Of a DNA stretch of 64,000 nt, positions 44,601 through 47,600 are shown piece by piece (position 1 is the stretch's first letter; each line of letters opens with the position of its first letter). Position numbers: made by a program. Source of the DNA: Escherichia coli (GTDB taxonomy: Bacteria; Pseudomonadota; Gammaproteobacteria; Enterobacterales; Enterobacteriaceae); the NCBI RefSeq assembly GCF_016026235.1, contig NZ_CP065613.1; one strand, 5' to 3'.

Positions 44601-47600
44601 CCTGAAAGCTGGCTGGTTAACCTTCGCACCCAACGCGAAGCCTGCGGCTTAACAACCGCCGAACTCGCCAGGCTGCTCGATCTCGATGAAGAAATTATCA
44701 TCCAGTGGGAGAGCGGAGAGTATGAACCAACTATCAGTATGCTTATCCCACTGGCAAATATTCTTGGCTGCGATCCGATGTGGCTATTAACTGGTGAGGT
44801 TACTCCTCCGGAGCAACCAAAAAGTGAGGAGCAGCAACACCATGACGCATCTCAATAAGTTTGCCCCTTATCTCGCGAAGCTCTTCTACGGAAGAACCAA
44901 TACCAATGGTGACATAATCGCCGCTTCGCCCCTCAAGGTACATGCGAACATTTTTATCAATCATTGCGGAAACAGTCTCAATATGAAAACACTTCTGAGA
45001 CTCGCTATATAGCAGAACATATAAGTCAGCTGAGGAAGCCATGAAAAAGTTCGAAAACATAACTGTTCTCCATGTTGATAACTTTGATTATACAAACCAG
45101 GAACTTCTCCCGGAGGTTGTAAAGGCAATAGATGTTGCCGATATAGTGATTAGAGGAAAGAGAATTGTCAAAAACAGGCTCGCATGTACTTCAGGAGCAA
45201 TGACAGAAACAACCTCACAGCAAGATGATTATGAAGGCATTTGTCTGGAGCCTGATTCATTTGCGGTAAATGTTTATCATTTATTGCATGCAACACAGGT
45301 GTTACATACGTCCAGTAATAACGAAACAAAAACACTTGGCAGTGAAATTCTGAATTTTGCATGTGAATATGCAAAAGCCGCTGTTGAAAAAGAATTAGCG
45401 CAATAACAACAAATATGCCATGAACGTTTATCACGGTTTTATCGCCGGGGATTATCACACCCTTAATCCACAGGAGGCTTTATTATGACTTTTATAAAGA
45501 ATATGGCATCACACAAGACCGCCTGCCTTATTGCACAATACGGTGAAAATTACATGCATATTGCCTGCTTATTTCTGCGTAAAGCATACGGGAAATAACA
45601 AATGACACATGAACCCATTAATACATATCGTCGCCGTATAGCTGTTGCGGCACTCCATCGAATAAAACGTAAAACAGGTGGTAATCTGCTTATTGTTGAC
45701 CTTCTGGATGGGAACATTACGACCATAGAAATAACTGAACAGTTTATAAACCAGTTGCTGTTACGCTTTGAAGGTATTACCCGTGGTGAATTGGGCCGAG
45801 TGGAGGGTGAAACCGAAATCCGCACTGCATACCAGAATGCTATCGGGATTAATCAACATACTGAATACCAGGCTGAAACCGGAAAGTTAATTATAGACAA
45901 CCTTTTACAAGAGGTTATTGATTACGCGAAAGAAAAATATATCAGCGGAGGAATTAACTGATGGCTAATTTATCCCCTGTATCTGTTGTGCACGAAAAAG
46001 TGCAGATCGTTATGACTATTGAAAATGGCCAGGTAACAGGTGTCTGCAAAGTCCGCGATGGAGAGCTGATTGCCAGCATGGATACATTCATATGGCTGGC
46101 AGAAAGAGCGGGGTATCAGATAACAGCACCTGCTCAGGAGGAAACCAGTGACATTAACAGCAACACGAATTCCTGAGTGGGTCCACCAGCAGGCGTTGCT
46201 GGTCCTGCGGCGGTACAGATGCCGATGTATATTCCCGCATCGGATACAGCGCAACGGATATCTCAGTCTGAAGGTTAACCGTCGCTGGCGGCTGTTATCG
46301 AAAGACGACGGCCGGAACTGGGAAGTAATGAGTCATGAACGTTATTCGGGGGAAATAAAGAAATGATCGACAACCGCACCGCCAGCGCCATTGACCAGGC
46401 ATTACAGAAACATGATACACCCGTCGGCCCGTTATTTTTTGTAACACGCCACGGAAGAACAAAAAAATGCCTCACCCGAAAAACGGCAATTCGTTACCTG
46501 GCATTCTTTATGACCACCCGCGCTTTTGAACGTTCAGGATTCCGACAACGCCATCCTGACAAGCGTTTTATCTTCAACGGGAATGAGATATGGAAACGTG
46601 GAGAATCAACCACAGAGTATACCCGCGCACACCAGCGAACAATCAGACGACTGCGCAGACTCATCGCCAGGAAACAGTATACAGAAAAATGGTTCAGAAA
46701 ATATGACACATGGAGCGCCGGATATTACGAACTGATGGCAACAAAACCATTCTGACGTAAACGAAATTAACCATGACGCAATTAAATAAGGCAAGCCGAA
46801 TACATCAGGAGGACCATGAACATTTATTTCAGAATAGTTATATCACTGGCAATTATCGCATGTATTTACGGATTAATCGTTCCGGCCCTCATATCAATGA
46901 AGGATACGGTAGCAGTGATTTCTGGCTTTGCTCTGGCGTGTCTGACCCCGCCCTGCATTTATGCCATTTATAAGGGTCTTTCTTTCCCCGGGAGGGAAAA
47001 ATGAAAAAAACAATTGCGCTTGTTTTCGCGGTCAGTCTGGCTGTCTTCGGACTTGTAGGTTGCGATCGCGTTGAACCAGGTAATGTGGGTATCAAAGTCA
47101 ACAAACTGGGCGACGACAAAGGTGTCGGTGAGGTGGTCGGTGTTGGTCGCTACTGGACTGGCTGGAATACTGAAGTTTACATTTTCCCGACCTTCAAGCA
47201 AATGAAGACCTACGATGAACCGTTCAGTTTCCAGATGAGTGACGGCACAACCATCGGCTATCACATCGGCGTGGCCTACAAAGTTGATCCATCCAAAGTT
47301 ACCACGGTGTTTCAGACTTACCGCAAAGGCGTGGATGACATTACCAACACCGACCTGCGCCAGAAGATCGCCGACGCACTCAATCGGCTGGCCAGCAAAA
47401 TGACCACCGACAAATTTATTGACGGCGGTAAATCTGAATTACTGGATGCCGCTCTAAAAGACATCCAGGAAGAAATGACACCCATCGGTATTCAGGTAAT
47501 GAGCCTCTCATATGTGGGTAAGCCAGAGTACCCACCAACCGTTATCGACAGCATTAACGCCAAAGTCACGGCAAACCAGAAAACACTGCAACGCGAGCAG

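What the first reader, a model, noticed from the sequence alone, without database searches (positions are those of the whole stretch)
45407..46755. Early-left operon lacks exo/bet/gam and instead holds small unrecognised genes, one with an arginine-rich N-terminus
Downstream of the rex-position module are a 37-aa ORF with a strong ribosome-binding site, a 119-aa protein beginning with YRRRIAVAALHRIKRK (reminiscent of N-protein arginine-rich motifs), and three small mostly basic proteins (71, 72 and 130 aa), all tightly coupled. I could not recognise Red recombination or Kil/CIII homologs. These may include the antiterminator and host-takeover functions in unfamiliar form.
Basis: inference. Interest (0 to 1): 0.3.

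Follow-up and report, generated by a model that had tools for sequence, protein, structure and literature searches.

The report
Prophage early-left accessory gene cassette
Five small, real but mostly uncharacterised genes sit where phage lambda keeps its recombination genes; one has the fold of a RelE/ParE toxin, none looks like the N antiterminator, and the block is an ordinary shuffled set of prophage accessory genes.

Summary
They are C (37 aa), D (119), E (71), F (72) and G (130), translationally coupled on the + strand of an E. coli lambdoid prophage at mlrA/yehV. All five are conserved as proteins in prophages of Enterobacterales and are under purifying selection. They lie in the CI-repressed leftward operon. 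Its promoter and operators sit right after cI, so the "rex-position" genes are really the first pL genes.

No Exo/Bet/Gam, RecT/Erf, Kil or CIII match exists in that operon.

The N-antiterminator idea fails. D's arginine-rich start is helix 1 of a confidently folded domain with no structural relatives. The motif decays in homologues, boxA/nut matches are at chance level, and no strong terminator needs read-through.

No partner is constant, however. E occurs without F, D without F, and F without either in conjugative elements and other phages.

My best reading is a mosaic accessory cassette whose F protein is a solitary RelE-fold effector, probably an RNase, silenced by CI rather than by an antitoxin. 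The mechanism is inferred. Interest is low to moderate.

The parts
44270..44354 (+). Putative pL promoter (TTGACA 44282-44287, 17-nt spacer, TAATAT 44305-44310) flanked and overlapped by three 17-bp ATCAA-N7-TTGAT-like operator sites (44270-44286, 44317-44333, 44338-44354). It lies just downstream of the cI terminator at 44230-44252.
   Evidence: The only 0-1-mismatch sites near the immunity region are 44317 (0 mismatches), 44270 (1) and 43483 (1). Weaker copies at 43404 and 43434 lie in the cro-cI intergenic region. The function of these sites is inferred.
45434..45447 (+). Small conserved hairpin upstream of gene C: stem CGGT/GCCG, loop TTTATC, followed by GGGGAWT.
   Evidence: Across 19 divergent loci, 3 of 4 pairs show compensatory changes (CGGC/GCCG, CACC/GGTG, CGCC/GGCG, CAGC/GCTG) and 97% of cells are paired. 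The covariation score is 0.343 against 0.191 +/- 0.025 in shuffles (0 of 500 reach it). There is no U-tract, the loop is not conserved, no second copy lies near pR, and the folding energy is unremarkable. Function unknown.
45485..45598 (+). Gene C, a 37-aa basic peptide with conserved core AYKTA.L...G....IA.L[YF]LRKAYG[RK].
   Evidence: pN/pS 0.2-0.3. AGGAGG ribosome-binding site. No match in Pfam, PHROGs, NCBIfam or PADLOC.
45602..45961 (+). Gene D, 119 aa, PHROG family 1737 (unknown function). The arginine-rich N-terminus is part of helix 1 of a folded alpha/beta domain.
   Evidence: phrog_1737, E 4e-51. AF2 pLDDT 88.8, with H6-25, E29-33, E39-43, H46-64, H66-80, E81-83, E88-90, H92-114; no consistent structural relatives; 126 clusters, all hypothetical, all in Enterobacterales.
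45961..46176 (+). Gene E, 71 aa, acidic (pI 4.4), PHROG family 340 (unknown function). Its last 29 nt overlap the start of F.
   Evidence: E is absent from several loci that keep D and F. It is present in phiP27 without D, F or G.
46148..46366 (+). Gene F, 72 aa, basic (pI 10.9), a minimal RelE/ParE-fold protein (Pfam PF24732 ParE_like, phrog_1525). Family signature: WRLLS..G..W..M[ST]H[EQ].Y.
46363..46755 (+). Gene G, 130 aa, very basic (pI 11.0), PHROG family 1886 (unknown function), a narrow orphan family.
   Evidence: 419 clusters, none with a name or Pfam domain; only 57 representatives among 1.84 billion proteins; no PDB or Pfam relative. G is missing downstream of F in 9 genome loci and lies upstream of D in Yersinia.

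Best explanation
Window 45485-46755 holds five genuine, translationally coupled genes (C, D, E, F, G). They form an accessory cassette of the CI-repressed leftward early (pL) operon of a lambdoid prophage whose early-left region resembles phiP27. The cassette occupies the place where lambda carries Red, Kil and CIII.

Shown:
- The genes are real, conserved and under purifying selection.
- They are independent mosaic units that shuffle between phages.
- None is an N-type antiterminator or a Red protein.
- D is a folded protein with no recognisable structural relatives.
- F has the RelE/ParE toxin fold, with an invariant Arg on strand 3 and invariant His and Tyr at the start of the C-terminal helix.

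Inferred:
- The cassette has no promoter of its own. It is silent in the lysogen because CI occupies the operators around pL, and it is made only after induction or infection.
- F then acts as a solitary, antitoxin-less RelE-type effector. Most likely it is a ribosome-dependent mRNA endonuclease that damps host translation early in lytic growth.
- Repression by CI does the job that an antitoxin does in a classical toxin-antitoxin pair.
- C, D, E and G are separate accessory proteins whose roles remain unknown. The adjacent acidic E or D may modulate F in this lineage, but they are not obligate partners.
For: Real genes: conservation in 80 viral and about 30 genomic loci; pN/pS 0.17-0.48.

pL context:
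- Terminator after cI, a strong promoter and shared operator-like sites.
- Only weak internal promoter-like sites, fewer than chance expectation.
- No strong + strand terminator up to xis.

No Red or N.

F fold:
- Pfam PF24732.
- AF2 pLDDT 93.
- R48, H63 and Y66 are 100% conserved, and E64 80%, from E. coli to Enterovibrio.
- The motif WEVMSHERY parallels REVMTHKEY at the end of E. coli HigB, whose sequence was verified against PDB 5IFG.

Solitary nature:
- F homologues sit between a DUF2857-like and an STY4528-like gene in conjugative elements (12 loci).
- They sit after a DnaQ-like exonuclease next to a primase-like gene or a Dam methylase (11 loci).
- They sit between a ParB-like and a PAPS-reductase-like gene in Serratia.
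- None of these contexts has a small antitoxin-like neighbour.

Mosaicism:
- D is followed by unrelated small genes in Yersinia enterocolitica.
- phiP27 has B, C and E but no D, F or G.
- Some loci carry D-F without E, others G-D-F, others no G.
Against: - hhalign against E. coli HigB aligns only 10 residues (probability 3%).
- E64 is replaced by Q or N in some members.
- An A-site mRNA nuclease would also cut phage messages.
- F's frequent neighbours in other elements are DNA-metabolism genes, which could point to a DNA-related role.
- The pL assignment rests on consensus matching only. The operator motif overall is not above chance in the window (42 matches against 33 +/- 6 expected).
- Natural fused ORFs E-F (L045) and D-F (L094) hint at a functional link with neighbours.
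Confidence: 0.5

Rival explanations
1. E (or D) and F form a classical type II toxin-antitoxin pair. An acidic upstream antitoxin neutralises a basic RelE/ParE toxin, and the pair stabilises the prophage or aborts superinfection.
For: - E is acidic (pI 4.4), lies immediately upstream of basic F (pI 10.9) and overlaps it by 29 nt.
- Where E is missing, D overlaps F by 4 nt.
- Fused E-F (L045, 153 aa) and D-F (L094, 199 aa) ORFs exist.
- F has the toxin fold.
Against: - E is absent from L087, L090, L098, L100, L104 and L106, which keep F.
- phiP27 has E without F.
- Yersinia enterocolitica has D without F.
- F occurs without D, E or any small neighbour in ICE-type and other contexts.
- No DNA-binding domain was found in E or D.
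- No convincing internal promoter or operator exists.
- PADLOC models do not match.
Confidence: 0.2
2. F is a non-toxic derivative of the RelE/ParE fold. It would act as a small nucleic-acid-binding or protein-binding adaptor or regulator of early replication or recombination functions, and the cassette is a set of regulators rather than effectors.
For: - F is tolerated without any antitoxin-like neighbour in several kinds of mobile element.
- In those elements it usually sits next to DNA-metabolism genes: ParB-like, PAPS-reductase-like, DnaQ-like exonuclease, primase-like, Dam methylase, ICE replication protein.
- F has only one N-terminal helix, where the canonical toxins it matches are 84-121 residues long.
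Against: The strictly invariant Arg, His and Tyr set, in positions analogous to RelE/YoeB/HigB catalytic residues (plus established knowledge of those enzymes), is what one expects of an enzyme. Being solitary is also explained by repression of the whole operon.
Confidence: 0.2
3. One reading: D (or another basic protein of the block, such as G) is an N-like antiterminator acting at unrecognised nut sites.
For: - D starts with YRRRIAVAALHRIKRK.
- G carries an Arg-rich helix, AHQRTIRRLRRLIARK.
- A small covarying hairpin lies upstream of C.
- PGAP annotates no N gene in the prophage.
Against: - D is predicted folded, with the motif inside a structured helix.
- The motif is not conserved in distant homologues.
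- boxA matches are at chance level, and none lies downstream of pL or pR.
- The hairpin's loop is variable, it has no second copy in the pR operon, and it is absent from many loci that keep C-G.
- No strong terminators lie in the pL operon.
- D and G are dispensable or relocated in related phages.
Confidence: 0.03

Closest known systems
RelE/ParE toxin superfamily (RelE, YoeB, HigB, YafQ, ParE; Pfam PF24732 ParE_like)
   Different: - F is only 72 aa with a single N-terminal helix.
- It has no detectable sequence similarity to solved toxins beyond a 10-residue motif.
- No antitoxin is co-conserved with it.
- It is embedded in a repressor-controlled early operon instead of an autoregulated bicistron.
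- Its activity is untested.
Accessory early-left regions of lambdoid phages (lambda exo-xis and ea genes, P22 ea genes)
   Same: The position between the immunity region and xis-int is the same. Both consist of many short, tightly packed, translationally coupled ORFs, show a mosaic distribution among related phages, and are expressed from pL (established knowledge; PMC3824215 for the exo-xis region).
   Different: No sequence or profile similarity to lambda or P22 proteins was found. The families here are phrog_1737, 340, 1525 and 1886, all of 'unknown function'.
Lambda N / nut antitermination
   Same: D has an arginine-rich N-terminal stretch, and its gene lies in the pL operon.
   Different: D is folded, is not the first pL gene, and its motif is not conserved. 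There is no boxA or boxB and no terminator to overcome.
paaR2-paaA2-parE2 three-gene toxin-antitoxin system of an E. coli O157:H7 cryptic prophage (PMC8630535)
   Same: It is a ParE-type toxin carried by a lambdoid prophage together with small neighbouring genes.
   Different: That system is a toxin-antitoxin module whose transcriptional regulation was studied as its own unit (PMC8630535 abstract). Here no partner is constant, no regulator is present, and the genes are part of pL. No sequence relationship was found.

Membership tests
RelE/ParE toxin superfamily | Characteristic fold: N-terminal helix or helices packed on a three- to four-stranded antiparallel sheet, followed by a short C-terminal helix | tested here: met
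RelE/ParE toxin superfamily | Profile match to a curated family of the superfamily | tested here: met
   PF24732 ParE_like scores 63.7 bits against a cut-off of 24.4, E 1.5e-17. All 14 of 14 homologues match.
RelE/ParE toxin superfamily | Catalytic residues of the RNase branch, or the C-terminal gyrase-poisoning determinants of ParE | tested here: inconclusive
   R48, H63 and Y66 are invariant and E64 is 80% conserved. Their placement on strand 3 and at the start of the C-terminal helix resembles RelE, YoeB and HigB, but no residue-level superposition was available. hhalign to HigB covers only 10 residues.
RelE/ParE toxin superfamily | Adjacent, co-conserved cognate antitoxin gene | tested here: not met
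   E is missing in 6 genome loci. E occurs without F in phiP27, D occurs without F in Y. enterocolitica, and F occurs without D, E or G in ICE and other contexts.
RelE/ParE toxin superfamily | Own autoregulated promoter or operator | tested here: inconclusive
   Only two weak (9 of 12) promoter-like sites were found, and the total is below chance expectation. No palindromic operator was identified.
RelE/ParE toxin superfamily | Growth inhibition on expression, relieved by the antitoxin | not testable with these tools
   This needs an experiment.
Lambda N-type antiterminator | Small, intrinsically disordered basic protein with a conserved N-terminal arginine-rich motif | tested here: not met
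   D is predicted folded (pLDDT 88.8, pTM 0.80), with the motif inside helix 6-25. D has pI 5.9. The motif degenerates in homologues.
Lambda N-type antiterminator | nut sites (boxA plus boxB hairpin) downstream of pL and pR | tested here: not met
   boxA gives 41 matches against 41 expected, with none in 44310-46000 on the + strand or 42700-43130 on the - strand. The one covarying hairpin has a variable loop and no second copy.
Lambda N-type antiterminator | First gene of the pL operon, with terminators downstream to be read through | tested here: not met
   The HTH gene at 44364-44858 is the first pL gene. No strong + strand terminator lies in 44311-49900.
Lambda Red (Exo, Bet, Gam) or other phage recombinases (RecT, Erf, Sak) | Profile match to the families in any pL-operon ORF | tested here: not met
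   Pfam, PHROGs and NCBIfam scans of all ORFs from 44364 to xis show none. PGAP annotation of near-identical prophages shows none.
Lambda Kil / CIII | Profile match to the phage families | tested here: not met
   None of C-G hits a PHROG or Pfam family with that annotation. Very short proteins such as C may escape detection.

The most novel reading that the evidence does not exclude
The F family is a widespread antitoxin-less RelE-fold effector. Several unrelated classes of mobile element (lambdoid phages, SPI-7/PFGI-1-type conjugative elements, other prophages with ParB/PAPS-reductase or exonuclease/primase modules) would switch it on at the start of their active phase, with repression of the element replacing the antitoxin. 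In the lambdoid lineage it travels with D, a protein with a fold not seen in PDB or BFVD, and with a 35-aa peptide preceded by a covarying RNA hairpin.
Probability: 0.25. Interest if true: 0.55.

Novelty: new member of a known kind. Interest (0 to 1): 0.3.

Why it matters
If F is an active solitary RelE-type nuclease, it would show that mobile elements can deploy toxin folds as timed early effectors controlled by the element's own repressor rather than by a cognate antitoxin. That would also caution against annotating every ParE/RelE-like gene as half of a TA pair.

Practically, the work gives three results:
- A 37-aa gene that RefSeq misses in these strains is shown to be real.
- The N-antiterminator reading is removed.
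- This phiP27-like class of lambdoid prophages is documented as lacking Red functions altogether.

Otherwise the region is ordinary prophage accessory content.

Tried and rejected
- **N/nut hypothesis.** The boxA search was at chance level. The promoter and terminator scan found no terminators to read through. The D structure is folded. Rejected.
- **Second helix next to the hairpin** (G-run with C-run). No covariation and 75% pairing. Rejected.
- **Rfam scan of 39-53 kb.** Nothing in the cassette.
- **Profile searches of D, E, F and G against PDB sequences.** Nothing below E 0.1.
- **Pfam on all alignment members of D, E and G.** Only noise.
- **NCBIfam and PADLOC.** Nothing for C-G.
- **G profile against 1.84 billion representatives.** Only its own narrow family, with no multidomain relatives.
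- **40-aa 'truncated F' entries in databases.** These proved to be alternative start calls, not pseudogenes.
- **Classical TA pairing of E-F, D-F or F-G.** Contradicted by gene-neighbourhood surveys.
- **Literature searches** for PF24732 and for phage RelE-type early effectors. Nothing relevant.

Full report
**Setting.** The window carries an E. coli lambdoid prophage integrated next to mlrA (yehV).
- The finding's region is 100% identical to prophages in several human E. coli isolates. It matches 340 of 5,426 complete E. coli genomes, 105 of them over at least 80% of its length.
- PGAP annotation of these relatives shows a lambda-like head and tail, lysis genes, a Q antiterminator, DnaB/DnaC-type replication genes, Rha-type regulators, cro, cI, then the genes studied here, xis and int.
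- Among deposited phages, two match best. PhiR49_2 matches at 97% over the left part. The Stx2e phage phiP27 matches at 89% over parts.

**Observation.**
- The coupling is a 3-nt gap C/D, a 1-nt overlap D/E, a 29-nt overlap E/F and an ATGA overlap F/G. AGGAGG sites precede C and F.
- The ORFs are not chance. A scan of viral contigs with F returned 80 loci in which C, D, E, F and G recur in the same order, at protein identities down to 30-70%.
- E seemed absent from some loci, but inspection showed divergent 58-92-aa forms in every one of them.
- Median pN/pS is 0.17-0.48, and variable sites are enriched at third codon positions.
- The 37-aa ORF has 34 distinct yet clearly homologous sequences. 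It is not annotated by RefSeq in the two strains examined, though other annotations list it.
- One correction: E is acidic (pI 4.4), D is near neutral, and F and G are strongly basic.

**Operon context.**
- cI (43523-44218) is followed by a GC-rich hairpin with a T-run at 44230-44252, then by TTGACA-17-TAATAT at 44282-44310.
- The best matches in this region to a 17-bp ATCAA-N7-TTGAT motif are three sites around this promoter (44270, 44317, 44338) and three in the cro-cI intergenic region (43404, 43434, 43483).
- I therefore read 44282-44310 as pL/OL.
- This is consensus-based inference. The motif count over the whole window is not above chance.
- Between pL and xis there is no strong + strand terminator, and internal promoter-like sites are weak and fewer than expected by chance.

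**No Red, no N.**
- Pfam, PHROGs, NCBIfam and PADLOC scans were run on the ORFs of the leftward operon.
- They give an HTH regulator, unknown families, a small membrane protein, an SPFH lipoprotein, an ORF6N/antirepressor-like protein, a beta-clamp-like protein, DUF4222, an excisionase and an integrase.
- They give no Exo, Bet, Gam, RecT, Erf, Kil or CIII. PGAP agrees.
- For the N idea, D was modelled from a 27-sequence alignment. The model has pLDDT 88.8 and pTM 0.80 and is a compact alpha/beta protein in which residues 6-25, including YRRRIAVAALHRIKRK, form the first helix.
- In Yersinia, Pantoea and Erwinia homologues the RRR becomes RRK, RNR or NRN.
- boxA-like strings occur at exactly the chance rate, and none lies downstream of pL or pR.

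**The one recognisable gene.**
- F matches Pfam PF24732 (ParE_like) at E 1.5e-17, as do all homologues tested. RefSeq now names it 'ParE family toxin-like protein'.
- A 60-sequence alignment gave an AlphaFold model with pLDDT 93.3: strand 2-5, helix 10-24, strands 39-42, 47-51 and 57-62, helix 63-71.
- The fold assignment is therefore sound, but it does not say which branch F belongs to.
- Across 61 distinct family members from E. coli to Enterovibrio, W47, R48, L49, L50, S51, G55, W58, M61, H63 and Y66 are at least 90% conserved. R48, L50, G55, H63 and Y66 are invariant, and E64 is 80% conserved.
- An Arg on the third strand plus His and Tyr at the C-terminal end is the pattern of the RNase branch (RelE R61/Y87, YoeB R65/H83/Y84, HigB C-terminal His/Tyr; established knowledge).
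- The end of E. coli HigB, REVMTHKEY, parallels F's WEVMSHERY. I verified the HigB sequence against PDB 5IFG. hhalign aligns only those ten residues, without significance.

**Is it a toxin-antitoxin pair?** The local picture invites that reading: acidic E overlaps basic F, and fused E-F (L045) and D-F (L094) ORFs exist. Wider sampling argues against it.
- In 66 loci from GTDB species genomes, several keep C-D-F-G without E. Nine lack G. Yersinia has the order G-D-F.
- More distant F homologues sit in quite different places:
  - between a DUF2857-like gene and an STY4528-like replication gene of conjugative elements (12 loci);
  - after a DnaQ-like exonuclease and before a primase-like gene or a Dam methylase (11 loci);
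  - between ParB-like and PAPS-reductase-like genes in Serratia.
- None of these contexts has a small antitoxin-like neighbour.
- Conversely, D in Yersinia enterocolitica is followed by two unrelated small genes and no F.
- phiP27 has B, C and E followed by a different 212-aa gene, with no D, F or G.
- Each gene is thus an independent mosaic unit.
- G is a very narrow orphan family: 419 clusters without a name or domain and only 57 representatives among 1.84 billion proteins.

**Mechanism.** I commit to the following, and mark it as inference.
- The cassette is transcribed from pL only when CI is inactivated or on infection.
- F is then produced as a solitary RelE-fold effector, most likely a ribosome-dependent mRNA endonuclease.
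- Repression of the operon substitutes for an antitoxin. This would explain why F tolerates having no fixed partner in several repressor-controlled mobile elements.

The rivals keep real weight: a lineage-specific TA pair with E or D, a non-catalytic adaptor linked to DNA-metabolism genes, or a ParE-type gyrase poison. The N-like reading does not.

**Verdict.** The region is an ordinary, already catalogued set of prophage accessory genes (PHROG and Pfam families exist), with one member of the RelE/ParE superfamily in an unusual, partner-less arrangement. Interest is low to moderate.

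Noticed in passing
window 45434-45447 (+): A four-base-pair hairpin about 40 nt upstream of gene C shows compensatory changes in 3 of 4 pairs across 19 divergent loci. It is followed by a conserved GGGGAWT. It is not terminator-like or boxB-like, and it is absent where C is coupled to a different upstream ORF.
   Followed up: partly
window 44803-45060 (-): An 86-aa ORF lies on the opposite strand, between the first two pL genes and overlapping both. It matches phrog_6104 over its full length (E 2.8e-49) but is not annotated in RefSeq relatives. phiP27 gene L09 lies on the same strand at the corresponding place.
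   Followed up: partly
window 49713-49862 and 51113-51220, IS at about 49863-51112: The excisionase gene is split after codon 49 by an IS3-family element. The element carries two transposase ORFs on the - strand, and orfA looks IS911-like from memory. The rest of xis resumes at about 51113. Relatives have an intact 84-aa xis, so this prophage copy is probably excision-defective.
   Followed up: partly
window 40815-40902 (-) and 40927-41003 (-): Rfam finds a C4 antisense RNA (80 bits, E 9.5e-15) and an isrK Hfq-binding sRNA (62 bits), both above their gathering scores. They lie in the rightward region next to antirepressor-type genes, an arrangement resembling the P1/P7 and Gifsy immunity modules.
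   Followed up: no
window 44364-44858 and 45041-45406 (+): Residues 24-72 of the N-terminal domain of the first pL gene (an HTH protein) and the C-terminal half of the next gene (121 aa) hit the same PHROG families, 4587 and 5451. Many related loci carry a 66-74-aa acidic gene between C and D that is absent here.
   Followed up: no
L045 517-978; L094 3623-4222; L100 3619-4029: Natural fused ORFs occur in other genomes: E-F (153 aa) and D-F (199 aa). In L100 a D protein carries only the tail of E. These may be real fusions or assembly frameshifts.
   Followed up: no
L113/L114 3165-5096; L121-L147: F-family genes are embedded between ParB-like and PAPS-reductase-like genes (resembling IbrB/IbrA) in Serratia. 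In Proteus, Providencia, Morganella and Xenorhabdus conjugative elements they lie between DUF2857-like and STY4528-like genes.
   Followed up: partly
window 46816-47831 and 48621-49190 (+): Downstream pL genes include a 62-aa membrane protein coupled to an SPFH/band-7 lipoprotein, and a 189-aa protein with weak similarity to the DNA polymerase III beta clamp. PHROG labels the latter family 'RusA-like', probably wrongly.
   Followed up: no
L149 23529-24063 (related prophage in CFSAN029787): The related prophage also carries a canonical RelE/ParE toxin with a ParD-like antitoxin between its lysis genes and a KilA-N gene. This pair is separate from the F gene studied here. I did not check whether it is present in the window.
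   Followed up: no
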